Part shown: positions 24,399-64,000 of the stretch, piece after piece
How positions within the stretch are numbered: the first letter of the stretch is position 1
Layout: every line of letters starts with the position of its first letter
Origin: Mobula hypostoma
Lineage: Eukaryota
Assembly: GCF_963921235.1 (NCBI RefSeq)
Contig: NC_086107.1
Coordinates: 105,030,001-105,094,000, forward strand
Direction: 5' to 3'
DNA length: 64,000 nt
The notes under the pieces: generated by a model
What the model was told of the DNA's origin: nothing
Seen by the model: the letters and a program-made list of their open reading frames with translations, nothing else
The model's database searches: none
Position numbers and translations under genes: made by a program

Positions 24399-24426
24399 AT
24401 GTTGCTCCTGGCTGTTTTATTAATTG
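24399..24426 (+). CDS. LRC-like Ig receptor, exon 1 (signal peptide part 1, MLLLAVLLI)
   Basis: gcaaaATG (A at -3), nine mostly hydrophobic codons, phase-1 consensus donor G|GTGAGT at 24427; CpG-rich upstream region. Confidence 0.85.
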
Positions 24427-25831
24427 GTGAGTATGTACACCTCCATCGATAACCTCGTCAAAGGCAAGTTCTCCCAGTGGCGAAGGGCACTCCTGTTAAA
24501 CCACTCTGAACGGATGACAATTCCCGAGACGCCAATAGTAAAAGTCGGGACAGGGAGTCGTCGCTTACTCTCTCTCGGCTCTACTGATGCCTGAGAGGTA
24601 TTTTATGGTCAAAGCACCCACGGGCCTCTCTCCGCAGTGTCACAGTTCTATAAGTGCCCTGGGACTGTTTAAAATGTATATGGTTTTCGCTGTCACTGAC
24701 ATTAGGTTAGTGTGGCTGATGTGTCCTATGCCCGTAATTCACTGATGGTGGAAATGAGTGTTACTCGTTTTGAGGAAGCGCTAGTGGGGGGGGGGGCAGT
24801 CATTAATCCCCATACGTCTGAGCGCAACAACACCAGCGTAGGGAACGAACGGGAACCCTTTTTACAGAAGCCCAGAAAGCGATTTTGTCCGCAAGTCGGA
24901 AAGCGCGCAAAATCACTCGATATAGTAACCACACCTCGACGGTGTTGCAACGAATGGCGCATGGGATTGATAAGAAAGCGCAATTAAGGACGTGCACTAA
25001 ACGCTGAGAGAGGAATTTAGCAGTAAACACGGGAAAATTTGCAGACGCTGGAAATCCAAAGCAACACACACAAAATGCTGGAGGAACTCAGCGGGTCGGG
25101 CAGCGCCTATGGAAAAGGGTAAACTTTGGGCGTCTCGATGAGGGATCCCGGCCCGAAACTTTTCCATAGATGCTGCCTGGCTTGATGCGTTTCTCCAGCA
25201 GTTTGTGGAAGTTAGTGGTGTTGTTCCCAGGGACGAGCGTGGATACATATACCGGGATGTCTGAATTTAATAACGTTCTAGTTCTTATGTCAGGGTGTCT
25301 GTAAATCGAGTGTTTGTAACCCGGGGATGGCCAGTACTTATAACGATGCAGAGAAGGGGACCCGTCGGGTTTATGAAGGCTTTCCACAGTTTACCCACGA
25401 GCCTCAACCACTCGCTGATTTTCCTGTAAGTTAATCTCTCTCGCACGTCTATCAGATCACTCTAAATCGTTCCACACACAAATGCACTAGGTGCAGGCAA
25501 ACCAGCACGGTTCAGGGGTGGGAAGAAACTGGAGCTCTCCGAGGGAAGACCAAACAGGTCACGGGGAGAACGTGTCAACTTCACACGCGCAGCACCCTAG
25601 GGTCCGGATGGAACCCGGGAGGCAGCGGTTCTGCTGTGTGCCTGTTATTGCCCATCTGGATGGGTTCACCCAGCCCCAGTTCCATCCTCATGAAGTGGTA
25701 GCAGGAAATGGATACTCTTCCCACTCCACCCTGATGTCGCTCAGGGATATTTTATTGTTCCACCCACCCCCATTCTCATCCACATGTTTCTCATTGGGAG
25801 TGCAACTTGAAAATACCTGCTCCAATACCTC

Positions 25832-27430: not shown

Positions 27431-27466
27431 CCCGCGCGTCTGGATTCCGGGATGCCGGAAACAAAG
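27431..27466 (+). CDS. LRC-like Ig receptor, exon 2 (36-nt leader mini-exon, ARASGFRDAGNK)
   Basis: Acceptor tttttttttcattacag, donor AAG|GTCAGT, exactly 36 nt, phase 1-1, open in the frame joining exon 1 to the Ig exon. Confidence 0.8.
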
Positions 27467-27940
27467 GTCAGTGCCTGGATCTAAAAGGGTGAAGGAAGTA
27501 CAGTATCTGATAACTTTCTCTAACTCTAAAGTTACTGTTTCAGTTTGGGGCGCAGAACATCAGACTATGAGAGTCACGGTACAACTCTTAAAAACTTTGG
27601 TTAGGCCACAGTAGGAATATTGTGTTCGGTTCTGATGGGCAAAAGGTAGGATAATGTACTGCAGAGGGTGCCGGGGATACTTACTAGGATGTTGGCTGGG
27701 GTGGGATGTTTCAGGAGAGATTGGATTGTTTTCCTTAGAGCAGATGAGGCAGAGGGGGAAACTGATAACATGTTTCAGGAACATAGATGGGGTAGATAGT
27801 GAGAACTTCTCCTCGCGATGGAGGTACAGTATCTAGAACCAGAGTTTAAGCAGAGGAGTAAGAAAGGAAGAGCGGATCTAATGAAAATCTTACAATTCAC
27901 TTAAAATGATTTAATTATCCTTCTGTGTTTTTTTTTGAAG

Positions 27941-28228
27941 AAGCTCCTAAGCCCTCATTGCATGTGATTCAGTCATCATCTGGTTCAGCACTCGGAGACT
28001 CTGTTATATTCACATGCGTAGCTCCTGGACGGGCCCCACCCACACACTTCATGCTCTACAAAGAAGGCTCGGATCTGCGATTCATAAACGAAGTGGGAAA
28101 CAGTTCTAATGTGGCCTTTGAGATCCAAATTGTAACCGTCTATGATTCAGGCCTTTACTCCTGCCGGTATCAGATCTCCAAGTCTGTGGTGTCAAGCCAC
28201 AGTGATTATGTGCATCTGACCGTGACAG
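27941..28228 (+). CDS. LRC-like Ig receptor, exon 3 (C2-type Ig domain, 96 aa)
   Basis: EAPKPSL...GDSVIFTC...FMLYKEG...AFEI...DSGLYSCRY...SSHSDYVHLTVT; two Cys 49 residues apart; poly-T acceptor ending gaag; donor CAG|GTGAGT; phase 1-1. Confidence 0.92.
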
Positions 28229-28499: not shown

Positions 28500-31400
28500 A
28501 CAGGGATATTGGAAACTTGGTTCGGAAAAAGAGAGAGATCTACAATAAGTATAGGCAGCTTGGAGTAAATGAGGTGCTCAAGGAATATAAAGAATGTAAA
28601 AAGAATCTTAAGAAAGAAATTAGAAAAGCTAAAAGAAGGTATGATTTTGCTTTGGCAAGTAAGGTGAAAATAAATCCAAAGGGTTTCTACAGTTATATTA
28701 ATTGTCATGGTCCGGTCCGTGAAGTCTATTCCGGTTCACGGACCAGTCCATTGACCCTTGCTCCAGGTTTTCCTGTCTACCCTGTTTCTGTTCTTGCTGA
28801 GCTCTAACTGAGTCAGCTGATGCTCATTGGGGCTGGCTGCTTAAATGCCTTCAGAGAGCAGGGCGTAGCTGCTGGATTGTTCTTGTCCTTACTGCTTGTA
28901 TCCCTTCCTCTGCCTTCTGTTTCCTCGCCTGAAGCCTTGCCTTCTGTTGCCGGTAACTCTCGCCTCGCCTGAAGTTCTCATTTCGCCTTACATTGCCTGA
29001 AGCATTGCCTGGTCTTGCTGGTAACTCTCGCCTTGTCTCGCCTTCAGTCTTGTCCTGGAGCCACCCTGTACCTAGCTCCATTCCTGTCCCTTGCCTCCAT
29101 CGGGTAAGTTAGGCCGTATTGCCGTTACCTACAGTTGGTTCTGTCCCTTCCTGTCCCTTGCCTCCGTCGGGTAAGCCAGGCCATCCTGCCGTTACCTGCG
29201 GTTGGTTCTGTCCCTTCCTGGCCCTTGCCTCTGTCGGATGAAGAACCGCGCCCAGCCCAGGAGAACCGCGCCCTGCCCAGGGGAACCGTGCCCTGCCCAG
29301 CAGGAGCCTCCAGCCTCCTGCCTCCTGCCAAGCCTCACCTCAAGACTCTAGCCTCTAGCCTCAAGCCTGAAGACTCCAGCCTCCTGCCAAGCCTCGCCTC
29401 AAGCCTGAAGACTCCAGCCTCCTGCCTCCTGCCAAGCCTCGCCTCTAGTCTCTAGCCTCAAGCCTGAAGACTCCAGCCTCCTGCCTCCTGCCAAGCCTCG
29501 CCTCTAGTCTCTCACCTCAAGTCTCCAAGACTCCAGCCTCGTCCTACCTGCCAGCCAAGCCTCGTCCTTGCCTAGTTCTGGGGTCTGAGCCAGAGGCAAG
29601 ACCCAGGTACTGGGTCTTTGTCCAGTCTTTGGCTCGGAGTCCAAGCCCGGGCTCCTAGCTCTCTTGTCCGGTCCTGTTCCGGGTTCCCACTTTTCGTGTC
29701 CATGTCCTTGCCCTCACCCTGTATCCTAGTCCTGTCCCTAGTACTTCAGTGTCTGTGTCTTGCACTTGGAGCCATTCCCAGCCACCTCCTTATGACATTA
29801 ATAGCAAAAGGATAGTGAGGGATAAAATTGGTCCCTTAGAGAATCAGCGTGGACGGCTATATGCGGAGCCAAAAGAGATGGGGGAGATTTTGAACAATTT
29901 ATTTTCTTCAGTATTCACTAAGGAGAAGGATATTGAATTGTGTAAGGTAAAGGAAACAAGAAGGGTAGTTATGGAAAGTATGGCAATTAAAGAAGAGGAA
30001 GTACTGGCACTTTTAAGGAATATAAAAGTGGATAAGAGTCTCTGGGTCCTGACAGGATATTCCCTAGGAAGTCAGTGTGGAAATAGCAGGGGCTCTGACA
30101 GAAATATTTCAAATGTCATTAGAAACGGGGATGGCGCCAGAGGATTGGCGTATTGCTCATGTGGTTCCATTGTTTAAAAAGGGTTCTAAGAGTAAACCTA
30201 GCAATTATCGGCCTGTGAGTTTGATGTCAGTGATGGGTAAATTGATGGAAAGTATTCTTAGAGATGGTATATATAATTATCTGGATAGACAAGGTCTGAT
30301 TAGGAACAGTCAACATGGAGTTTTGCATGGAACGTCATGTTTGACAAATCTTATTGAATTTTTTGAAGAGGTTACCAGGAAAGTTGATGAGGGTAAAGCA
30401 GTGGATATTGTCTATATGGACTTCAGGAAGGTCTTTGACAAGGTTCCACAGGGAAGGTTAGTTAGGAAGGTTCAATCGTTAGGTATTAATATTGAAGTAG
30501 TAAAATAGATTCAGCAATGGCTGGATGGGAGACACCAGAGAGTAGTGGTGGATAACTGTTTGTCAGATTGGAGGCCGGTGACTAGTGGTGTGCCTCAGGG
30601 ATCTGTACTGGGTCCAATGTTGTTTGTCATATATATTAATGATCTGGATGATGGGGTGGTAAATTGAATTAGTAAGTATGCAGATGATACTAAGATAGGT
30701 GGAGTTGTGGATAAGAGTGGGCTGAAAGATGGCAGATGGAGTTTAATGCTGATAAATGTGAGGTGCTACATTTTGGTAGGACTAATCAAAATAGGACATA
30801 CATGGTAAATGGTAGGGCATTGAAGAATGCAGTAGAACAGAGGGATCTAGGAATAATGGTGCATAGTTCCCTGAAGGTGGAATCTCATGTGGATGGGCTG
30901 GTGAAGAAAGCTTTTGGTATGCTGGCCTTTATAAATCAGAGCAGTGAGTATAGGAGTTGGGATGTTATGGAGAGGTTGTATAAGACATTGGTAAGGCCAA
31001 ATTTGGAGTATTGTGTACAGTTCTGGTCACCGAATTATAGGAAAGATGTCAATAAAATTGAGAGATTATAGAGAAGATTTACTAGAATGTTACCTGGGTT
31101 TCATCTCCCAAGTTACAGAGAAAGGTTGAACAAGTTAGGTCTTTATTCTTTGGAGTGTAGAAGGTTGAGGGGGGACTTGGAAGAGGTATTTAACATTATG
31201 AGGGGGATAGATAGAGTTGATGTGGATAGGCCTTTTCCATTGAGAGTAGGGGAGATTCAAACAAGAGGACATGAGTTGAGAGTTAAAGGGCAAAAGTTTA
31301 GGGGTAACATGAGGGGGAACTTCTTTACTCAGAGAGTGGTGGCTGTGTGGAACGAGCCTCCAGCAGAAGTGGTTGGGGCAGGTTTGATGTTGTCGTTTAA

Positions 31401-33965: not shown

Positions 33966-36900
33966 GTCGTCCCTTTCATTGGTGAAGAGACTATGGCTGT
34001 AGGAAATGTTTCCAGGATGACCCCTCTGTGGGAGTGGGGAAGATGTTGGTGAGGCCACCCGGGGGTCTGTGCGTCCGTATGTGTAGCTATTGTAGTGGCT
34101 GTGAGGCTGGTATTGTGGCGGAAACGTACTGGGGGGGAGCCATCATATTCAGTATATATTCATATGCAGTACCCACGATCTGGGTTCAATTCCCACCACT
34201 GCCTGTAAGAAGTTTGTACGTTCTTTCACGTGGATTTCCTCCAGGTGCTCCAGTTTCCTCCCACAGTCCAAAGACCTACCAATTGGTAGGTTAGTTGGTC
34301 ATTGTAAATTGTTCCGTGATTAGGCGAGGATTAAATCGGGGGATTGCTGGGCAGTGCGGCTGGAAAGGCCAGAAGGGCCTGTTCCGTTTCCCCATAAATA
34401 AATAAACAAACAAACAAAAACAAACGGAAAAGGATGGAATTAATCTCTGATCTAACTCACTTGGGAGAGCCTGATTGGATCATAAAAGCAATACAGGGTC
34501 CAGCAGTGAAATGCAACAATTCACATCAGTCAGGGGGAGAAAGAATCCCATTCTTGTTTTAACACCTCCATGTGTGTTAGCTTTCAGAGATTCTAGAGAG
34601 CATTAAATATGCCGGTAGAAAAGTTAACTGGCTGCATCTGATTCCACAGCTCAGCTGTGTGATCAATTAGAACTAACAGGCTTCTTTGAGAACAGCATGC
34701 ACTTCCATTGTGTCTTTCACCAGCTCAGGATGTTCCATAGAGTTAGACACCCCGTGAAACACTTCTGTCACTGCAGTACTGTAATCGTTTCCAGACCATG
34801 ACCTGGATTGTTTAAAGCTGCCAACCCTATAATCGTGGCTCGATTGAAAGCAGAGACACGAGACTCTGCAGCTGCTGGAATCAAGAGTAAATCAAAAAGT
34901 GGAGAGAGTGAGAGAGAACTGGAGAGAGTGAGTAATTTCAAGTTCCTGGATGTTAATATCTCTGATGATCTATCCTGGTCCCAATATATCGATGCAGCTA
35001 TAAAGAAGACAAGACAGTGGCTGTATTTCATTAACCACATAACCACATAACAGTTACAGCACGGAAACAGGCCATCTTGGCCCTTCTAGTTCGTGCCGAA
35101 CTCTTACTCTCACCTAGTCCCACTGACTTGCACTCAGCCCATAACCCTCCATTCCTTTCCTGTCCACATATCTATCTACATGTGGGCACGTGGCCAAGTG
35201 GTTAAGGCATTGGACTAGTGACCTGAAGGTCGTGAGTTCGAGCTCCAGCCGAGGGAACGTGTTGTGTCCTTGAGCAAGGCACTTAATCACACATTGCTCA
35301 GTGACGACACTGGTGCCAAGCTGTATGGGTCCTAATGCCCTTCCCTTGGACAACATTGGTATCGTGGAGAGGGGAGACTTGCAGCATGGGCAACTGCCGG
35401 TCTTCCATACAACCTTGCCCAGGCCTGTGCCCTGGAGAGTGAAGACTTTCCAGGTGCAGATCTATGGTCTCACAAGACTAACGGATGCCTTTATTTTGAA
35501 CTATCCAATTTAACTTTAAACGACAACATCGAACCTGCCTCAACCACTTCTGCTGGAAGCTCATTCCACACAGCTACCACTCTCTGAGTAAAGAAGTTCC
35601 CCCTCGTTTTACCCCTAAACTTTTGCCCTTTAACTCTCAACTCACGTCCTCTTGTTTGAATCTCCCCCACTCTCAATGGAAAAAGCCTATCCACGTCAAC
35701 TCTATCTATCCCCCTCATAATTTTAAATACCTCTATCAAGTCCTCCCTCAACCTTCTATGCTCCAAAGAATAAAGACCCAAATGCTGCCCGACCGGTTCC
35801 TCCAGCAATGTGGCATTTTTCGAATCAGAATCAGGTTTAATATCACTGGCAATTAAGAGCTTGAGGAGTCTTGGTATATCACCAAAGACACTCGCAAGTT
35901 TCTACAGATGTGTTATGGAGAGCATTCTAATTGGCTGCATCACTCTCTGGTTTGGGGAGTAGTAGGCTGCAGAGTTATAAAATCAGTCAGCTCCATTATG
36001 GACACTAGCCTCCGTAGTATCCAGGACATCTTCAAGGAGCAGTTCCTCTTCCATCATTAAGGACCTTCATCACCTAGAACATGCACTCTTCTCTTTGCTA
36101 CCATCAGGAAGGAGGTACAGACGCCTGAGAGCTCACACTCAACGACTCAGAAACAACTTCTTCCCCTCTGCCATCCGATTTCCGAATGGACATTCAACCC
36201 ATGATCACCTACTTTTTTAAAATTTCTATTTTTGCACTACTTATTTAATTATTTAATATACATATACTTTCTGCAATTCACAGTATGAAATAATCTATTA
36301 CTGGGTATTGCATTGTACTGCTGCCGCAAAGTCAACCGATTTCACAGCACATGCCAGTGATATTAAATCTGATTCTGATTCTGAAAGATGCCACGTTGCT
36401 GGAGGAACTTAAGGGGTCAGGCAGCATCTGCAGGGGGAAATAGGTAGTTAATGTTTCCCTTCATCTGGACTGAGAGGTAGGGGGAGAAAACCAGCAAAGA
36501 GGTGAGGGTTTGAGGTGGAGGAGGGGCTGGTAAGTGATAGGTGCATCCAGGTGAGGAGGGGTAAAGGCAGCTGGAGGAAGGGAGAGTGAAACTAGCATCA
36601 GTGGCCGGAAGGTGATGGGTGGAGGCAACCAAAGGGCTGCAAATGATGGAATTGGGCAGCAAAGGAAGGTGGAGCATGGAACCAAATAAGAGAGGTGGGA
36701 ACAGTAGGAGAAGGGGTTCCAGTGGGATTCAGTCGATGATGGGCAGACGGAGTGGGTAGAGAAGGGGAATGAGATGGTGCTGGGTGACTGGGAGTGGGTG
36801 TCGGAAGAACTGGGTGGATCGGGTGGGGAGAATATAGACATAGGGGAATCAGCTGGCCTGAAACTGGACATTTGAAAGCATTTTCACCTCTGAGCTACTT

Positions 36901-37571: not shown

Positions 37572-37720
37572 AAATGCTCTGGCCAATAGCAGTGAGCGTT
37601 CGACTGATGATTGTGTTTATCCTACACATAGTTGTCCTCATTACCTGGATATTATATCCTGACTATGGGGAAGATTCAAAGAAATACAAGGCAGAGATGG
37701 CAGTACAAGAAAATGTATAA
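37572..37720 (+). CDS. LRC-like Ig receptor, exon 4 (TM with Arg, short cytoplasmic tail, stop)
   Basis: Acceptor ttatttctctccattag; phase-1 frame reads EMLWPIAVSVRLMIVFILHIVVLITWILYPDYGEDSKKYKAEMAVQENV*; the four exons total 501 nt = 166 aa + stop. Confidence 0.8.
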
Positions 37721-38514
37721 TGTTCACAGATAATTTTAAAATGAATGAATGAATTATTAAATCCCTTAGTATGCTTTTCCAGTCTCTAGCTCTTCGGGCC
37801 AGAGTGCATTGAGCTCCAAGGTTTTTACAGCACTTGAACTGGTTAATTGTTGCTTAACGAGAGTCGTTAGTCATTTAGAGTTTCTTGTGTTTTTCTCGAG
37901 CGACTCGTTCTTTGTAATGCGGTCTCTTGGTGCTTTTCATTTAAACTGCTGGGTTTATTTGGCTTGGGGATTCCGTGTTACTTGTGTTATGTAAGCAGAC
38001 GCCCAATTAGTGCTAATCGCAGGGTCCTAGTTTTGAGAATGTTGCTTCTCACGGTGTTGCTTGGCCGAGCCATCGAGGTTCTGTTGGAATTATTATTGAA
38101 TAAAATCTGGTTGCCCTCTCTACATCAGAATCTGTCGTTTGTTCACACTTGGGTTCTGATACTGCCAGAGCACATCGTGATACACATGGCAACTAAGCAC
38201 AAATTGTTCAAAGACATTGCAATGCTTGTTCATGGGAACATCTTTAATTTTAATTAGAGGGTTGGCTGGTGCTATGTGAACAAGCCCCAATACTAGACAC
38301 TTGCCAGTAGCCTCTCCAATACAACTGCTTCTTCGGCCTAATAGGACCAAGAAATTGTCATTACTCAACTGTCATGTTATAGACACCATTAAAATTAAAT
38401 TATGTTAATTTATATCTGTGAAAACTTAAGACAAGTACAGTATACTCAGTTATCATTGCCTATTATAGAGCCATAGAAAAGTACAGCACAGAAACAGGCC
38501 CTTTGGCCCATCTA

Positions 38515-56195: not shown

Positions 56196-58360
56196 GTGAG
56201 GGATGAGGAGAAGTTGTTTCCGTGTTAAGGAAATTTTGTTAACTAGAATTATCTTGTACTTGCTTCCATTGAAGGCTTTTGATTATAAAATGGTGTGGTT
56301 TTAGAGTGAATGGATATTTTGCTTTACGTACCTTGTTATTCCCATGTTTAATTTCCTTTATTGGAAATGCACCCTGCTCTGTTCATTTCTGCTTTGGCCT
56401 GTATCTCCCAATTGTGCATATGGAATACAGTAGTAAATGAAATGTGTATTTTGTTCAACTTTTACCTAGTTATTAGTGAGTTTGGAGATATTAGGGAATA
56501 TTTTGTGAGCTGTTTCCTTATCTCTGTGAACATCACTTGCCAAAGTCTTGAGCTTTCGAAGAATATTGTCACTTTGGTTCAGCGCTACCTCACTCGTAGC
56601 GTTGAGGCACGTTGCTCAGGCAGGGTATGAAGCGATTTGATCAGCATTGAACTGTGCCGAACCTGACCTGCCAATTTTAATGTGTAACTCAGGAGCTAAC
56701 TTGTCGGTTTTAAGGAAATCATGCTCTGATTAGTTCATTTGTGTACAATTTTGATGACTGTTATTTTTCATTCTTTATAAACTCAATACTTTATGTCTAA
56801 TTATTCTCTGATTTAAATACATACAAAGCAACTCTGTTCACATCATCTGAGCAGGGTATCTAACTGTGGATATCATTAATTCCACACTAGTAAATCTCTG
56901 GCAAATTATTTGTGCTGTCAGCTATTCTTCTGTTGGCTTCACAATTTTGTAGTTTCAGGGTAAACCAGTAAGTGCTTGAAGACCAGTCTCTCCGGGGTAT
57001 ATGGTGCTATACCGTCTTCACTTCTTTTGCTTCACACCCAATACTAATGGATAAAATGTAAATTACGAAACAGATGCTTTCCGAAAACAAGTGTCCCATG
57101 GGTAACTTCGACCTAAATCAGGAAGCGGCGTTTTCATGCTGCTCATTACTCTGCTGACCTTTTTGAAGGTGCTGTTTGCCCACCTTTTATGAAAGAAGGC
57201 TGATGCCTCAAAATGGAGATGAGGATTCCAACTTCGTCAATAGAACGACACTAGCCCACGGTGAGACTCTCAGTTGCAATTATTGTCAGATACTACTTTT
57301 GAAGAGACTTTCACTTAGAACAGAGTTGCAGGTGGTGTTTTACACATGGAGCTGTACTGAGATCAACAGGACAAGTGTACCTGCTTTCTGCAGTCTGGCT
57401 ATCGTCAAGGAGGTTCAAGATCAAGGGAGCACTGAGAGCAGACTCTGAGCCCAGTACTTACTGCCCATTACGGGGCTGGCATTTAGGGCAGCAGTGAAGG
57501 TCATCTCTAGCAGTGTTCAGAGTTTCCTTCATGTCAGTAGCTTCCTCTCTGCTTTCACTACTGTCGGTCATGCAAGTCCCGGGTAGAGACTCAGGAATAC
57601 CGTCTCACTCAGAGGTAGAAGGATTCTTCATTGGTGTTTTGGTAACAATTTTGTTTTACCAGTCAGGGTTGTTTGCTCTGAGCTGAACCCCTGAACCTGC
57701 AGGACCGGTGGACCCCTCTACCGTTTGCCATTTTTGGCGTTGGTGACCCGACCAAGAGCCAAAGCATAAAGCCCTGACTCCAGCCAACATCGCTCTCCGG
57801 GTCATTGAAGCATGCAAGCCTCCAACCCGACACAAGGTTGTGGTTCTCTTGGAGGTCTGAGCCCAGTAGAAATGACAGATAGGAACAGTTATTAATGAGA
57901 AAAGCGTGGCTAATGATTTCAACTAATGTTATTAAAATAACTAGTTTGTCTTTTCTAAGAATTGAGGAGTCTGTGCATTTAAAATAAGTACCTTGTACTG
58001 AAACAGTCCCTGAAGATACCATTGCTCTCCTTCGGTTTCATTAGAACATTTAAATATCAAGCCAGTTTTCTGGTCCACTGTTTTACACCCCCCACCACCA
58101 CCCTGATGTAAGTGGTAATTATTCAGGAACCATTCAAACTGATCTCTGCTGTTGGACGCTTGTAATTCCAGTGCAGTTCTTTGTAGATTTCTGCCGACTT
58201 CACCTTTGAGAAGCATCCAAAGCGAAGAACATGAATGATTGGAATAATATACATCAAAGATCATTGTTGTTGGTGCCACAAGGTTGTGATTTTACTTTTT
58301 AAAAAATTCTGTGGAGGAGCATTAGTTACAGCGTGGCTTTTTTGCTTGTTTTCTGAACAG

Positions 58361-58494
58361 AATGCCCAGCACGTGGAGGTGGAGAGTATTCCACTACCAG
58401 ATATGCCTCATGCACCGTCAAACATTATGATTCAGGACATACCCCTCCCGGGAGCTCAACCACCCTCAATATTGAAGAAAACATCAGCTTATGG
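58361..58494 (+). CDS. WBP11: WBP11 coding exon 5
   Basis: NAQHVEVESIPLPDMPHAPSNIMIQDIPLPGAQPPSILKKTSAYG; cag/gtgagc; 134 nt. Confidence 0.96.
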
Positions 58495-59543
58495 GTGAGC
58501 AGTAATTAAATTGTACAAGCAGCTCCTTTGGCAAGAAATTGAGCGGAGAATATTTAAAATTACAAGTATTATGTTTAAGATATGAAACTCTTTGTCTATT
58601 CGTATCTAGATCTTAAATATATTAAAGAAAAATTTATGGGCACATAACATTTCTTGCTACTTACACCAGGAAAATCCTAATTAGAGTGGGTTTGTTAATT
58701 AGGACTATTTTTCTGGTTAAGTGTGAGAAGTGGAGTGATGTGAACAGTCAGCTTATTGCTTATTGAAGCTGCCTGGTACAGATGTAGTATACGGGGTGGG
58801 GGGCAGTAGAGGTGCTGTAAGATTGGGGTTCGATACCTACTGCTGTCTCTAAGGAGTTTGTATGTTCTTCCTATGATTGCTTGGGTTTCCACTGGGTGTT
58901 CTGGTTTCCTCCCACTGTTAGGGTTAATGACTTGTGGGCATACTGTGATGCTGCCGGAAGTGTGGCAACACAGGCTGCCCAACACAATCCTCACTGATTG
59001 ATTTGTTGCAAATGATGCATTTCGCTGTGACAAATGAAGTTAGTCTTTAGATGAAAATGACTACTTTAATGGTTTATACCATCCTTTGATGACGGAGAGC
59101 AATGTCAGGTGACAGATGTATGGTGGCATGAATCTTTTGACGTGGATTTTAAGACTTTAGTATACGGTGTCTTTTCCACACTTGATTGTGCAATGAAATA
59201 TAGTGGAAATGTTTATGATAAGTAGTGATATTACACAGGTAAAATATCTTTTGGTTAAGATAAAGTTGGATGTAATTCAGCCCTCATATTAAAGGCATTG
59301 CATTTGTCTATCAGTTCATTTTGGGACAAACTTCTAGTAAGTGCGTGGCCAGAGTCTTTAATATTAATATCAATGTAGAAGTGAGGTAAATAAATCGAAT
59401 GTTTTATCATAACATGGTACTGACTCTCCATGGTATGTTAGACTGAGTACCTGAGATTACAGACATGCATGAATTTTAATTTTTAATTTGGTCTTTATAG
59501 GAGGGGAAAAAGTCATCATAAATTAACTATTTTTGTTCTTCAG

Positions 59544-59743
59544 GCCACCCTCCAAACCTGTTACACTTATACCACTTCCTTCTTACGGGGTTCCACGGTT
59601 GCCGCCTGGTAAGAAGCCACCCGGTCCTCCGCCAGGTCCTCCACCACCACAGGTGTTAGCACTTTATGCCCGAAGGATGGGCCCTCCTCCAGGTTTACCT
59701 CTGAAGGGAAAGGATGACGATAATGTCTACGATCCTGAAACTG
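59544..59743 (+). CDS. WBP11: WBP11 coding exon 6 (Pro-rich)
   Basis: PPSKPVTLIPLPSYGVPRLPPGKKPPGPPPGPPPPQV...YDPET; cag/gtaaga; 200 nt. Confidence 0.95.
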
Positions 59744-59897
59744 GTAAGACATCATGTTTTAGAGAGGCTGCTGAGCTCCCTGCTTTGATACTGAATGACT
59801 GTGCTGGGATAGTGTGAGAGTGTAATTTTGGGAATGTTAATTCTGTAGTGCCTGTGGTTACTGTGTATATGATTCCAACCTGACCTTTGCCTTTTAG

Positions 59898-60098
59898 CAA
59901 TTCAGGATATGCAGGAGGATGAGGAGGAGGAAGACAGTGGGGATGATGATTACAACGATGGCATGGAGCAGGATCAAGATGGAGATCGAGATGATCAAGA
60001 TGAAGACAGTGATGATTCAAAGGATAAAGACAGTGATGACGATGATGATTTTCGGCACCGGGATGAAGATGATGACAGGTTGGACGATGATAAGCCAG
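59898..60098 (+). CDS. WBP11: WBP11 coding exon 7 (acidic)
   Basis: AIQDMQEDEEEEDSGDDD...RLDDDKP; tag/gtattt; 201 nt, phase 1-1. Confidence 0.9.
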
Positions 60099-60211
60099 GT
60101 ATTTTCATGAGAGTGGGGATTGGTGGCACTTCCTCATGGCTTGACTGCTGTGTCCTTCATTTTATGTCGCTTTTTATAAGAACATTGAAATATTTCAATG
60201 TTTCTCCTCAG

Positions 60212-60313
60212 GACGTACTGTGCGGTTTGCAGATGTGCAGGACAAACACAAGAAGAAAAAGAAAAACATGAAGGAGCTGACTCCTCTGCAGGCCATGATG
60301 CTTCGAATGGCAG
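60212..60313 (+). CDS. WBP11: WBP11 coding exon 8 (RVxF-type PP1-docking motif)
   Basis: GRTVRFADVQDKHKKKKKNMKELTPLQAMMLRMA; cag/gtgagt; 102 nt. Confidence 0.95.
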
Positions 60314-60423
60314 GTGAGTGATAATACCCTTCATTGAGAGACCAGTGATCTGTCAGAGGGAATGAAATGATGGCATTGATGCATTTTAAGAGATAGTATA
60401 CAGATAACTTGTACAAGCAGTCA

Positions 60424-61117
60424 ACATAGAACAGTACAGCACAGTACAGGCCCTTCGGCCCACAATGTTGTGCTGACCCTCAAACCCTGCCTCCCATATA
60501 AGCCCCCACCTTAAATTCCTCCATATACCTGTCTAGTAGTCTCTTAAACTTCACTAGTGTATCTGCTTCCACCACTGACTCAGGCAGTGCATTCCACGCA
60601 CCAACCACTCTCTGAGTAAAAAACCTTCCTCTAATATCCCCCTTGAACTTCCCACCCCTTACCTTAAAGCCACGTCCTCTTGTTTTGAGCAGTGGTGCCC
60701 TGGGGAAGAGGCGCTGGTTATCCACTCTATCTATTCCTCTTATTATCTTGTACACCTCTATCATGTCTCCTCTCATCCTCCTCCTCTCCAAAGAGTAAAG
60801 CCCTAGCTCCCTTAATCTCTTATCATAATGCATACTTTCTAAACCAGGCAGCATCCTGGTAAATCTCCTCTGTACCCTTTCCAATGCTTCCACATCCTTC
60901 CTATAGTGAGGTGACCAGAACTGGACACAGTACTCCAAGTGTGGCCTAACCAGAGTTTTATAGAGCTGCATCGTTACGTCGTGACTCTTAAACTCTATCC
61001 CTGGACTTATGAAAGCTGACACCCCATAAGCTTTCTTAACTACCCTATCCACCTGTGAGGCAACTTTCAGGGATCTGTGGAGATGTACCCTGAGATCCCT
61101 CTGCTCCTCCACACTAG
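60424..61117 (-). mobile_element. CR1 LINE 3' fragment in WBP11 intron 8
   Basis: Open C-terminal ORF2 frame (LYKTLVRPHLEYCVQFWSP...RRMRGDMIEVYKI). Confidence 0.93.
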
Positions 61118-63293
61118 GTAACTTCTTAAGTAACTTTCCTATTGTTTCCTTACCTGCAAGTCCAGAAAAGTCCCAAGCATTGATCTGCAGAAAATGCTGA
61201 GTTGGCTGATCATGGACAGAACATTTGTAAAAAGTCAACAGATAATACTAATGGGGGAAACAATACTACAGCTCTACAGATTGGAAACATTTAACATCAG
61301 GAATCGAAGTAAACAAACAAAGGCATATTCCATTAGGTCTGTGAACCAGTTATTGGACACGTCTAAAGAGTGGGATGTAGTGTAAGAAATTAACGTGTAA
61401 TTTTTGTCAGTCGGAGACGTTGGGATCTAAAAGATCTTATTAAAGTGGTGGTTGCTAAATCCTTTCATCATCATCATTATCTGCCGTGTTGTATGATGTA
61501 GGCGATCGTGATTGTTCTAGGCAAAATTTTCTACAGAGGTGGTTTACAATTGCCTTCTTCTGGACAGTGCCTTTAGAAGATGGTGGCCCCAGCCATTATC
61601 AATACTGTTCAGAGATTGTCTGCCTGGTGTCAGTGGTCACATAACCAGGACTTGTGGTATGCACCAGCTGCTCATACAACCATCCACCACCTGTTCCATG
61701 GCTTCATGTAACTATGATCGCGTGGCTAAGCAGGTGCTACACTTTGCCCAAGGGTGACCTGCAAGCTAGCAGAGGGAAGGAATGCTTACACCTCTTTTGG
61801 TAGCAACATATCTTCACCCCGCCACCCTTTAAGTAAATGATTTAAGTCATTATAAAAGGGTATTGCGCAAGAACCTGAACTTGCTGAATTGGGAAAAATA
61901 AGCAGGAATTGGCCATAGAGCCACCATTTGGTGTGAGAGCTGGCCAGACCAATTACTCTTTCAAAGAGACAGCACCGAACTGATGTTCTAATTATTCTCT
62001 TTTGTATTATCTTTTTTCATGAGGTAATTCTGTGATATTGAAATGTATAATTTATTAGCCCTCACGTTGGTCTTGGTATTATCTCAGGGAAAATTCAACT
62101 GCTGAGCAATAACTAGAGATACCTTTACATACATTAGTTCAGGTTTGCCTCACCATGTGAAATAACTACCTGTCAACGATCACATGAAGAATGGCCGGCT
62201 GTGGCAGATGACAAAGGATTTGCCTTTGTAATTGAACTGGAATGATAATTGATGCAGTGGAAGATAATTAATTTGTATTGTTGGGGGTGGGGATGGTGAA
62301 GTGTAAAGGAAGTCCTGAAAGATCAAATAGACATGAGTTAGAAAGCACTTCTGTGAAGTAGAAGTGGGCCCTGAAATTCCATAGAGGTCCTCTTATTTAA
62401 ATATATACACCTTACACGTTTTCTCTTGAGTTCTTGTCTTCTGCTGATGTTGCAATTGGAGACTGATAGAGATCTTGTAGAATTTCGGAATCTAGTTTAA
62501 TATCACCAGTGTATGTCGTGAAATTTGGTGGCTTTGCAGCAGCAGCACAATGCAGTACATAATAAGAAGAAAAATCTTCGTGGGTTCAATGTCCATTCAG
62601 AAATCGGATGGCACAGGGGAAGAAGCTGTTCCTGAATCACTGAGTGTGTGTCCTCAGGCTCCTGTACCTCCTCCCTGATGGTAGCAATGAGAACAAGGCA
62701 TGACCTGGGTGATGGGGTCCTTAATGGTGGACACTGCCTTTTTGAGGCATCGCTCCTTGAAGATGTCCTGGATACCACAGAGGCCAGTGCCCATGATGGA
62801 GCTGACTGAGTTCACAACTTTCTGCAGCTTCTTTCGATCCTGTGCAGTAGCTCCCCGCCCCGCCCCCCCCCCCCCCAACCATACCAGACGGTGTTAGAAT
62901 GCTCTCCATGGTATATCTATAGAAATTCAGGGCCACATATTTTCAAAATTTACCCAGGGTAGTGTACCATAGTACTCGGCTTTGTTGTGTATCTAATCAT
63001 GTAAACTCTCACAAAGAATTGTTGCATGAGATTAGGATTCATTGAATTGGGATAATATGTAACCACGGGTTGGGTGTTGATTGATGGAGCAACAGGGTGT
63101 CACTGATTGAGTTACTTCAGGATCATTTCTTGCCCTCAGCTGTTTTCATGAAGATGACACAAAATATGGAAACAAATGTATTTCCTATCAGTAGTTTGGA
63201 AATTAATCTAAAAGGATGCAGTGAAAGGTAGAATGTGTCGTGTCTAAGAAAATTGTAATTAGAAATTAAAATGCAGTATCTGCTTTCTAACAG

Positions 63294-63575
63294 GACAAGA
63301 TTTCCCAGAGGAGGAGGAGGAGGAGGAAGAGGAGCCCACTCCTGAGGCAGCTGCTGAAGAAGAGAAGATGGATACGGAGGAACAGAATCGGGAAAAGCGA
63401 CAGCTGGAGGAAAGCCAGCCAGAGGGGCCACAGGTACCGCCGCCAACCCAGATGCCTCCCAGAGCACCAATGCAAGCTCCACCGATGCCTGGGCCTCCTC
63501 CGCTTGGACCTCCACCTGCACCCCCACTAAGACCCCCAGGGCCACCATCTGGTCTACCACCAGGACCACCCCCAG
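63294..63575 (+). CDS. WBP11: WBP11 coding exon 9 (acidic + Pro-rich); gene continues beyond window
   Basis: GQDFPEEEE...PMPGPPPLGPPPAPPLRPPGPPSGLPPGPPP; cag/gtaaga; 282 nt; no stop reached. Confidence 0.94.
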
Positions 63576-64000
63576 GTAAGAAACAAGATTGAAGTATTGA
63601 AATGGCTCCCAATGATGTGACTGTTTATGATGGAAGCTGAACATTTGAAATAAGCATCATGCTGTGTCCTTGCACTATCTACCGTACCAGTAGATGTTTG
63701 AAGTTGCTCTGTCTAACTCGAGTGGATCTGAGCTAATACAGTTGAAGCACGGTGGAGAACTGGAAGGTAAAATGAAACATGGATTCCTCTTGACACATCA
63801 AATTCAAACTTACCCACAAGCAGTTTACTCTGTGATAACTAGCAATGCAGTTAGAGTAATAATGCTTCTTTTAATGAACAGTTATGGATAGCTGCTTCTC
63901 AAATCTTGTCATCGGTGTAAGTCTGGCGAAGAGTGGTGAAAATCTTTGCCTTGTGTGTTTATAGATTTCTAAGCCTTGAACAGCTAAAGAGCAGTGATGT

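What the first reader, a model, noticed from the sequence alone, without database searches (positions are those of the whole stretch)
37572..37720. TM arginine (plus a mid-helix His) and signal-less tail predict ITAM-adaptor coupling
Seen: ...AVSV-R-LMIVFIL-H-IVVLITWILY-PDY, with Arg codon at 37601-37603, His at 37625-37627, and no ITIM or ITAM in the tail; TM and tail share one exon. Established: activating LRC receptors (GPVI, FCAR, NKp46, OSCAR, LILRA) use an Arg at the outer end of the TM to pair with FcR-gamma/CD3-zeta. Caveat: the Asn of the mammalian NxxR motif is absent. Inference: an activating receptor, which suggests an inhibitory paralogue may exist elsewhere; the terminal E-N-V could be a PDZ ligand.
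Basis: partly seen in the sequence, partly recalled or inferred. Interest (0 to 1): 0.7.

Follow-up and report, generated by a model that had tools for sequence, protein, structure and literature searches.

The report
Ray immune receptor with histidine anchor
This exon ends a small immune-receptor gene of a ray whose membrane anchor carries a histidine kept from rays to chimaeras, so it probably switches cells on through a partner signalling chain, but by a different contact than the similar mammalian receptors.

Summary
Observation confirmed. Arg codon 37601-37603 and His codon 37625-37627 lie in the last exon of a spliced 166-aa, stalk-less, single-Ig receptor of a devil-ray relative. Contigs from two studies join the Ig exon directly to this exon. 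The Ig fold is LRC-like. The tail has no ITAM or ITIM.

Relatives exist in rays, skates, a sawshark and the elephant shark. His is kept in 6 of 6 lineages, while the Arg site reads R in 4, K in 1 and Q in 1. Seven of eight invariant helix residues lie on one face with Arg and His (permutation p 0.002-0.004). The Arg sits at the NxxR register, but the helix shows no sequence similarity to NxxR helices, so it is a separate TM type. Elephant shark has an ITIM-bearing partner with a 94-98% identical ectodomain, which supports a paired activating role. No such partner was found in batoids. The PDZ idea is weak.

Best reading: an ITAM-adaptor-coupled activating receptor (about 75% in some form), most likely docking an FcR-gamma/CD3-zeta-type dimer through a His-containing face (45%). 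Binding is untested. The scan had no look-alike on other DNA.

The parts
24399..24426 (+). Coding part of exon 1 (28 nt): first half of the signal peptide
   Evidence: tblastn with the M. birostris orthologue; GT donor at 24427
27431..27466 (+). 36-nt mini-exon 2: second half of the signal peptide
   Evidence: In X1 and X2 the contig has 33 letters before 27938 plus 3 shared, which equals 36, but their placement was not shown
27941..28228 (+). Exon 3: the single C2-type, LRC-like Ig domain; alternative acceptor at 27944 (one codon shorter); one N-glycosylation sequon
   Evidence: Pfam Ig_2 E 4.8e-12; best single-domain PDB hit CHIR-AB1; fold searches; only Ig exon in the window; 165/166-aa isoform pairs in Mobula and Hemitrygon
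34724..34740 (+). Alternative 17-nt exon (five residues then stop) that would give a secreted 122-aa form
   Evidence: AG acceptor and frame; matches the C-terminus of M. birostris isoform X3, P0011; use in this species not shown
37572..37720 (+). Exon 4 coding part: TM helix and about 20-residue tail, spliced directly to the Ig exon (no stalk)
   Evidence: helix 121-145 in the AF2 model of the M. birostris orthologue
37601..37603 (+). Arg128 codon CGA (a CpG): outer TM basic site; R in 4, K in 1, Q in 1 of 6 lineages
37625..37627 (+). His136 codon: mid-membrane, 8 residues after the Arg, invariant; preceded by Phe at -3 in 5 of 6 lineages
37721..38116 (+). 3' UTR with AATAAA at 38099-38104
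   Evidence: contigs in X1 and X2 stop at 38116 (contigs cannot prove an RNA end)

Best explanation
The gene encodes a type I, single-Ig, stalk-less receptor. It is the activating arm of an old chondrichthyan paired-receptor family of LRC-like build (shown: gene structure, splicing, fold, family, ITIM partner in a holocephalan). It has no signalling motif, so it most likely signals by binding an ITAM dimer of the FcR-gamma/CD3-zeta class inside the membrane (inferred). The contact is probably a whole helix face (W121, A124, V125, L129, L135, H136, W143 plus position 128), not one salt bridge. The outer basic residue would meet the adaptor's acidic pair as in FCAR. The invariant His would make a second polar contact mid-membrane, in the place that D/N holds in the (M/L)Fxx(D/N)TxL motif of classical FcRs (inferred from spacing only). 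The second contact would explain why Arg can drift to Lys or Gln. Ligand unknown. The nearest solved folds bind collagen, MHC I or Ig Fc.
For: - Splicing of Ig to TM exon in 3 of 4 runs.
- All 23 rows listed among Foldseek ranks 1-27 are LRC proteins, first FcgammaR at rank 28. VIA top Z 15.0, rmsd 1.5 A over 91 residues (PirB), FcgammaRIII Z 12.8.
- His invariant in 6 of 6 lineages, spanning a split of about 420 Myr (PMC3964593, passage).
- TM identity exceeds Ig identity in 14 of 15 lineage pairs, e.g. 78 vs 57% for Mobula-skate.
- The conservation moment peaks at 100 degrees, direction about 20 degrees; Arg at 340 and His at 60 degrees flank it; permutation p 0.004 (6 sequences) and 0.002 (4 lineages).
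- Basic residue is 31-33 residues after the F-strand Cys (32-33 in 5 of 13 NxxR-type receptors) and 18-20 before the inner charge (17-18 in 11 of 13).
- Callorhinchus K/H receptors share 94-98% ectodomain identity with uncharged-TM forms; P0175 has an ITIM and an ITSM-like motif.
- FcR-gamma partners carry the Arg in the N-terminal TM segment, and CD16 and 'FcRI' (as printed) bind it without a basic residue (PMC1440944, passages). FcR motif from PMC2413239 (passage).
Against: - No binding evidence.
- Arg is replaced by Gln in Hemitrygon and by Lys in Callorhinchus; R-to-K cuts FCAR-FcR-gamma assembly to about 15% (PMC1440944).
- No similarity to NxxR helices: score -1 to -14, vs 6-42 leave-one-out and 7.9 +/- 6.3 for best-register controls.
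- The FxxH likeness is two residues, lacks the Thr, and the Phe is Leu in Callorhinchus.
- One survey found no FcR-gamma in sharks (PMC4016189, passages), and I could not confirm any adaptor in rays.
- No batoid inhibitory partner appeared.
- The six sequences are related, so the permutation p is optimistic; a conserved face shows a helix partner, not which one.
Confidence: 0.45

Rival explanations
1. One reading: Arg128 alone docks FcR-gamma/CD3-zeta as in FCAR or GPVI. The His does something else (folding, retention, oligomer), and the Hemitrygon and Callorhinchus forms are weakened variants.
For: Arg in 4 of 6 lineages at the NxxR register. The window's codon is CGA, one CpG transition from CAA (Gln), so the Hemitrygon change may be a single recent hit (inference; no Hemitrygon DNA seen). 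Hemitrygon also has two other private TM changes. A single well-placed basic residue is enough for KIR-DAP12 assembly (PMC1440944).
Against: His and seven other columns are invariant while Arg is not. Lys in both Callorhinchus loci, which are the ones with a proven ITIM partner. No Asn at -3 and no acidic residue at +15 to +19.
Confidence: 0.17
2. The partner is another signalling module (DAP12/DAP10 or another acidic-TM chain), reached through the centrally placed His.
For: DAP12 partners place their basic residue near the TM centre (PMC1440944), where the His lies (8 after the Arg, 10-12 before the inner charge).
Against: A KIR Lys-to-His change abolished DAP12 assembly (PMC1440944). The outer basic site matches the FcR-gamma register.
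Confidence: 0.13
3. No ITAM adaptor. The conserved face drives homo-oligomers or pairing with a co-receptor, and the protein works as a decoy, adhesion or modulatory molecule, with a secreted splice form.
For: Arg is dispensable in one lineage. The batoid gene looks single-copy and conserved, with no partner found. A TM-less isoform is annotated. Polar residues can drive TM self-association (PMC1440944, passage).
Against: The charged-TM/short-tail versus uncharged-TM/ITIM-tail pair on a 94-98% identical ectodomain in Callorhinchus is the standard paired-receptor design. A basic residue is present in 5 of 6 lineages at the adaptor-binding register.
Confidence: 0.2

Closest known systems
Activating LRC receptors with NxxR-type TM (FCAR, GPVI, NKp46/NCR1, OSCAR, LILRA, TARM1)
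   Same: LRC-like C2 Ig fold, split signal peptide, short motif-less tail, basic residue in the same register, TM and tail in one exon.
   Different: No Asn at -3, no DYT motif, no acidic residue at +15 to +19 (an Asp at +20 in batoids); hydrophobic W-P-x-A-V segment before the basic site; invariant His at +8 (0 of 13 NxxR-type helices); Arg not invariant; Ig domain falls outside the amniote LRC clade.
Chicken CHIR-AB1 and the CHIR family
   Same: Best single-domain PDB sequence match (E 1.2e-08) and Foldseek rank 4; one or two Ig domains; paired activating and inhibitory forms with a charged TM (PMC1458963, PMC4016189, passages).
   Different: CHIRs form a cluster of over 100 loci. This gene is the only Ig exon in the window and sits beside WBP11. 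Ig Fc binding is untested here.
Classical activating FcRs (FcgammaRI, CD16, FcepsilonRI alpha)
   Same: Phe-x-x-polar spacing in the TM core (FxxH vs Fxx(D/N)); FCRL5 is the best whole-chain PDB sequence hit, a sum over several weak domains.
   Different: His instead of D/N, no following Thr; 36-nt rather than 21-nt second leader exon; Ig fold ranks LRC above FcR.
Database records of this family (unstudied gene models)
   Same: XP_072129103-5 (Mobula birostris), XP_072889352-4 (Hemitrygon akajei), XP_078286786 (Rhinoraja longicauda), a Pristiophorus japonicus UniRef entry, XP_042196745/746/840 (Callorhinchus milii).
   Different: They are named only 'uncharacterized', 'IGSF1-like' or 'FCRL-like'. 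The TM motif and the pairing were not found described in my searches.

Membership tests
LRC-type Ig receptor superfamily | C2 Ig domain closer to LRC members than to other IgSF | tested here: met
   Foldseek ranks 1-27 all LRC. VIA ranks 1-47 are LRC or LRC-inserted antibodies, Z 15.0-12.9; FcgammaRIII Z 12.8. Model is of the 94%-identical M. birostris domain.
LRC-type Ig receptor superfamily | Phylogenetic nesting with amniote LRC domains | tested here: inconclusive
   95 domains, 101 columns: the family is its own clade (95/78) outside a 99/97 amniote clade, next to shark FCRL-like domains at 92/88 only; the root is arbitrary.
LRC-type Ig receptor superfamily | Signal peptide split over two exons with a 36-nt second exon (36-nt rule recalled; FcR rule is 21 nt, PMC2413239) | tested here: met
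   28 + 36 nt.
LRC-type Ig receptor superfamily | Linkage to LRC marker genes (TTYH1, LENG8, RPS9, TSEN34 and others) | not testable with these tools
   No genome held. Neighbour in the window is WBP11. Scan notes place FGF21-like 0.87 Mb upstream and PTPRH-like 6.8 Mb downstream (unchecked; both human 19q13 genes, recalled).
NxxR-type FcR-gamma-coupled TM | Arg in the N-terminal TM segment | tested here: met
   Arg128 in this species, same register; not kept in 2 of 6 lineages.
NxxR-type FcR-gamma-coupled TM | Asn at -3, DYT consensus, acidic residue at the C-terminal end, overall sequence similarity (PMC6557307) | tested here: not met
   Val at -3 in 6 of 6; no acid at +15 to +19 in 6 of 6; profile score below unrelated TMs; family TM HMM finds no NxxR helix at E<1 among 176 proteins.
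NxxR-type FcR-gamma-coupled TM | Physical association with FcR-gamma | not testable with these tools
Classical FcR TM type | (M/L)Fxx(D/N)TxL motif (PMC2413239) | tested here: not met
   FxxH only; no D/N, no Thr.
DAP12-coupled type I receptors | Lys near the TM centre (PMC1440944) | tested here: not met
   The central polar residue is His; the Callorhinchus Lys is at the outer site.
Paired receptors | Near-identical ectodomain with opposite TM/tail in the same species | tested here: inconclusive
   Met in Callorhinchus (94-98%, ITIM tail). No batoid partner or in the window; those searches are incomplete.
PDZ-binding C-terminus | Conserved class I/II/III motif at the last residues (classes recalled) | tested here: inconclusive
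   Final Val in 4 of 4 batoid lineages, but position -2 is E, E, K, E; absent in sawshark and Callorhinchus models.

The most novel reading that the evidence does not exclude
Cartilaginous fishes keep a third membrane code for ITAM-adaptor coupling: a His-centred helix face that joins the outer basic residue of LRC receptors with the Fxx-polar core of classical Fc receptors. It has been conserved for about 420 Myr in an LRC-like paired-receptor family, and could be a relic of how the ancestral FcR-gamma/zeta dimer was engaged. At the far end (under 10%), the receptor is an activating immunoglobulin Fc receptor of sharks and rays, by analogy with CHIR-AB1.
Probability: 0.3. Interest if true: 0.72.

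Novelty: new variant of a known kind. Interest (0 to 1): 0.47.

Why it matters
A 2014 survey reported no LRC-like C2-only receptors and no FcR-gamma in sharks (PMC4016189, passages). This family, with a charged-TM/ITIM pair in a holocephalan, points to LRC-like paired receptors being older than bony fish. It also offers a natural experiment in membrane assembly. In mammals His cannot replace the DAP12-binding Lys, and Arg-to-Lys cripples FcR-gamma binding, yet here His is fixed while Arg drifts to Lys and Gln. Four point mutants would show whether a new adaptor-docking rule exists. The general class (short-tailed, charged-TM Ig receptor) is ordinary, and the gene models are already in databases.

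Tried and rejected
- Whole-genome search for paralogues, adaptors and LRC markers: no genome held. Scan notes held nothing on TYROBP, HCST, FCER1G, CD247 or the marker genes.
- A second Ig exon, second TM exon or ITIM-type tail in the window: none among 2132 six-frame peptides.
- TM segment against PDB: 0 hits at E<=10 for the window and the sawshark segment. ESM Atlas on the TM gave one unnamed cluster at 0.80, chance level.
- Homodimer prediction of residues 113-152: no answer, score 0.03, alignment not used; not counted either way.
- No listed run is on record as RNA. Depths were not used.
- HIDE1 membership (Pfam PF17737 E 1.3e-05; Atlas top cluster 0.96, tied with LILR/KIR clusters): the sturgeon HIDE1-like domains do not group with the family.
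- Reading the helix as a decayed NxxR helix: rejected.
- The first TM script had a bug and was redone.
- A likeness of the G-[FL]-R-L stretch to TCR alpha/delta helices is recalled only and could not be tested.
- Ten literature searches found no description of this family or TM motif. The library lacks most subscription papers, so absence from print is not shown.

Full report
Observation. The exon begins at 37572 after an AG acceptor, reads in phase 1 and stops at 37718-37720. The Arg codon CGA is at 37601-37603 and the His codon CAC at 37625-37627. The helix and the roughly 20-residue tail share the exon. The tail has no ITIM or ITAM (by eye; motif scan of seven family tails).

The gene. With the closest database protein as guide, the gene has four coding exons: 24399-24426 (28 nt), 27431-27466 (36 nt), 27941-28228 (one Ig domain) and 37572-37720. 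They give 166 aa, or 165 with a second acceptor three bases on. There is no stalk. In one search I laid 4 of the 11 runs listed. Single contigs join the Ig exon straight to the TM exon in X1, X2 and X4 (two studies, two coded organisms). The X2 contig has no mismatch and stops at 38116, 12 bases after AATAAA. For X8 the listed rows show only the Ig exon. The runs are only guessed to be RNA, but they skip a 9.3-kb GT-AG intron. A 17-nt alternative exon at 34724-34740 matches the end of a TM-less 122-aa isoform annotated in Mobula birostris; its use here is not shown. This is the only Ig exon in the window. WBP11 follows downstream (E 7.4e-24).

Relatives. Searches with source names gave orthologue-like proteins in M. 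birostris (94% in the Ig domain, 48 of 49 residues in the last exon), Hemitrygon akajei, Rhinoraja longicauda and an unnamed skate-like record. They also gave two-Ig forms in the sawshark Pristiophorus japonicus and in Callorhinchus milii. The window is therefore from a devil-ray relative. In a tree of 95 Ig domains from 27 chosen proteins (101 columns, few for so many rows), the batoid domains group at 100/96, with sawshark D2 at 96/81 and Callorhinchus D2 at 95/78. This follows the species tree and suggests batoids lost the first domain. The family lies outside a 99/97 clade of amniote LRC-type domains, and deeper placement is unresolved. Holocephalans and elasmobranchs split about 420 Myr ago (PMC3964593, passage).

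Ectodomain. Pfam calls it Ig_2 (E 4.8e-12). The best single-domain PDB match is chicken CHIR-AB1, while FCRL5 scores best as a sum of weak domains. I modelled the M. birostris protein (mean pLDDT 74.4, helix 121-145). All 23 rows listed among Foldseek ranks 1-27 are LRC proteins, and the first Fc-gamma receptor is rank 28. VIA-align gives Z 15.0 (rmsd 1.5 A, 91 residues) for PirB and 12.8 for FcgammaRIII. The second leader exon is 36 nt; FcR-like genes use 21 nt (PMC2413239, passage), and the 36-nt LRC rule is recalled. So the build is LRC-like, but orthology to any mammalian LRC gene is not shown.

The helix: His is fixed, Arg is not. Over six lineage representatives the Arg column reads R, Q, R, R, R, K, while W121, A124, V125, L129, L135, H136, V138 and W143 are invariant. 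His is present in all 11 TM-bearing family records and in 3 of 62 control helices. TM identity exceeds Ig identity in 14 of 15 pairs; the exception is Mobula-Hemitrygon (74 vs 85%). Conservation is periodic at 100 degrees with direction about 20 degrees, and Arg (340) and His (60) flank it. Permutation p is 0.004 for six sequences and 0.002 for four lineages, optimistic because the sequences are related. This is the mark of a helix-helix interface. The tail is not conserved between batoids, sawshark and Callorhinchus (0-1 identities over 6-18 positions, ungapped).

Not an NxxR helix. Of 103 retrieved proteins with a TM, a script flagged 41 with a basic or Gln residue at the outer end. Eleven were this family, I picked 13 as NxxR-type, and I left out 17 as duplicates, other types or interfacial false positives. 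The family's basic site has the same register as the NxxR Arg: 31-33 residues after the F-strand Cys (32-33 in 5 of 13) and 18-20 before the inner charge (17-18 in 11 of 13). The sequence around it is unrelated: score -1 to -14 without the basic column, against 6-42 leave-one-out and 7.9 +/- 6.3 for 62 other helices at their best register. It lacks the Asn, the DYT consensus and the acidic residue at +15 to +19 that PMC6557307 lists (passages and Discussion read). Sharks do have the ordinary type in other receptors (Mustelus P0069, Heterodontus P0137), so this is a second charged-TM type in the same animals. Phe-x-x-His (Phe in 5 of 6) has the spacing of the classical FcR motif (M/L)Fxx(D/N)TxL (PMC2413239, passage), but this is only a two-residue likeness.

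The predicted inhibitory partner. In Callorhinchus, P0053 and P0169 (Lys/His helix, short tail) share 94-98% ectodomain identity with P0170 and P0175. These have an uncharged helix, and P0175 has an ITIM and an ITSM-like motif. P0053, P0169 and P0170 each lie on a contig of the same length. This is the strongest support for an activating role. No batoid partner turned up, which are incomplete searches.

How it most likely works. Shown: a spliced, stalk-less LRC-like receptor with a conserved polar helix face, no tail motif, and an ITIM twin in one lineage. Inferred: ligand binding clusters the receptor with an ITAM dimer bound in the membrane, followed by Src and Syk signalling (established pathway; PMC10679719, passage). 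PMC1440944 (passages) narrows the partner. FcR-gamma partners use an N-terminal Arg, Arg-to-Lys cuts FCAR assembly to about 15%, Lys-to-His abolishes KIR-DAP12 assembly, and CD16 binds FcR-gamma with no basic residue. An Arg-only mechanism fits the Lys and Gln forms badly, and His as a DAP12 hook is unlikely. A composite face on an FcR-gamma/zeta-type dimer fits best (0.45). Rivals are Arg alone (0.17), another adaptor (0.13) and no adaptor (0.20). The Hemitrygon Gln may be one CpG transition in a lineage with relaxed constraint, which would rescue the Arg reading. I could not confirm the adaptors in rays. PMC4016189 (passages) reported no FcR-gamma in sharks; PMC4536121 (passages) proposes an ancestral FcR-gamma/zeta-like gene. 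The immune-gene supplement of PMC3964593 is a PDF too large to read here and may bear on this and on prior mention of the Callorhinchus genes; its readable tables had no hit for the adaptor names.

PDZ idea. The final Val is kept in 4 of 4 batoid lineages, position -2 reads E, E, K, E, and the motif is absent outside batoids. Weak.

Novelty. Short-tailed charged-TM Ig receptors are a known kind, and these gene models are in databases under automatic names. Ten searches of the held library (listings seen, seven papers read in passages) found no account of this family or of a His-centred TM. Verdict: a real feature, interpretation partly right, a new variant of a known kind, interest 0.47.

Noticed in passing
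window 34724-34740 (+): 17-nt alternative exon giving a secreted 122-aa form, as annotated in M. birostris. No poly(A) signal within about 880 nt, so it may be a cassette exon spliced on to the TM exon.
   Followed up: partly
window 27938-27944 (+): Tandem acceptor giving 166- or 165-aa forms; the same isoform pair is annotated in Mobula and Hemitrygon.
   Followed up: partly
window 37658-37690 (+): The inner juxtamembrane stretch is acidic (three D/E before the first Lys) in all batoid forms, against the positive-inside rule; NxxR helices also end in an acidic residue.
   Followed up: partly
window 58235-63600 (+): WBP11 exons downstream on the same strand (45 of 46 residues match the PDB chain in one exon); not a known LRC neighbour (recalled).
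   Followed up: partly
window 15855-13240 (-): 872-residue uninterrupted reading frame that looks like a LINE reverse transcriptase (recognised by eye); many shorter copies lie in the introns.
   Followed up: no
window 29081-29553: Cluster of short tandem repeats (periods 20-104) in the intron after the Ig exon.
   Followed up: no
P0069, P0135, P0160 (Mustelus), P0137 (Heterodontus), P0147 (Carcharodon): A separate shark family of multi-Ig receptors: Arg-type TMs ending in Glu, and an ITIM/ITSM form whose domains group with the Mustelus ones (99/85 and 98/95). Looks like a second paired LRC-like system in sharks.
   Followed up: partly
P0008 (Hemitrygon isoform X1): Alternative N-terminus with no obvious signal peptide.
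   Followed up: no
P0124: An unnamed NxxR-like receptor in which His stands at the Arg position itself.
   Followed up: no
same assembly piece, 0.87 Mb upstream and 6.8 Mb downstream: Scan notes report FGF21-like and PTPRH-like genes, which would put this gene on a chromosome sharing genes with human 19q13, the LRC region (human positions recalled).
   Followed up: no
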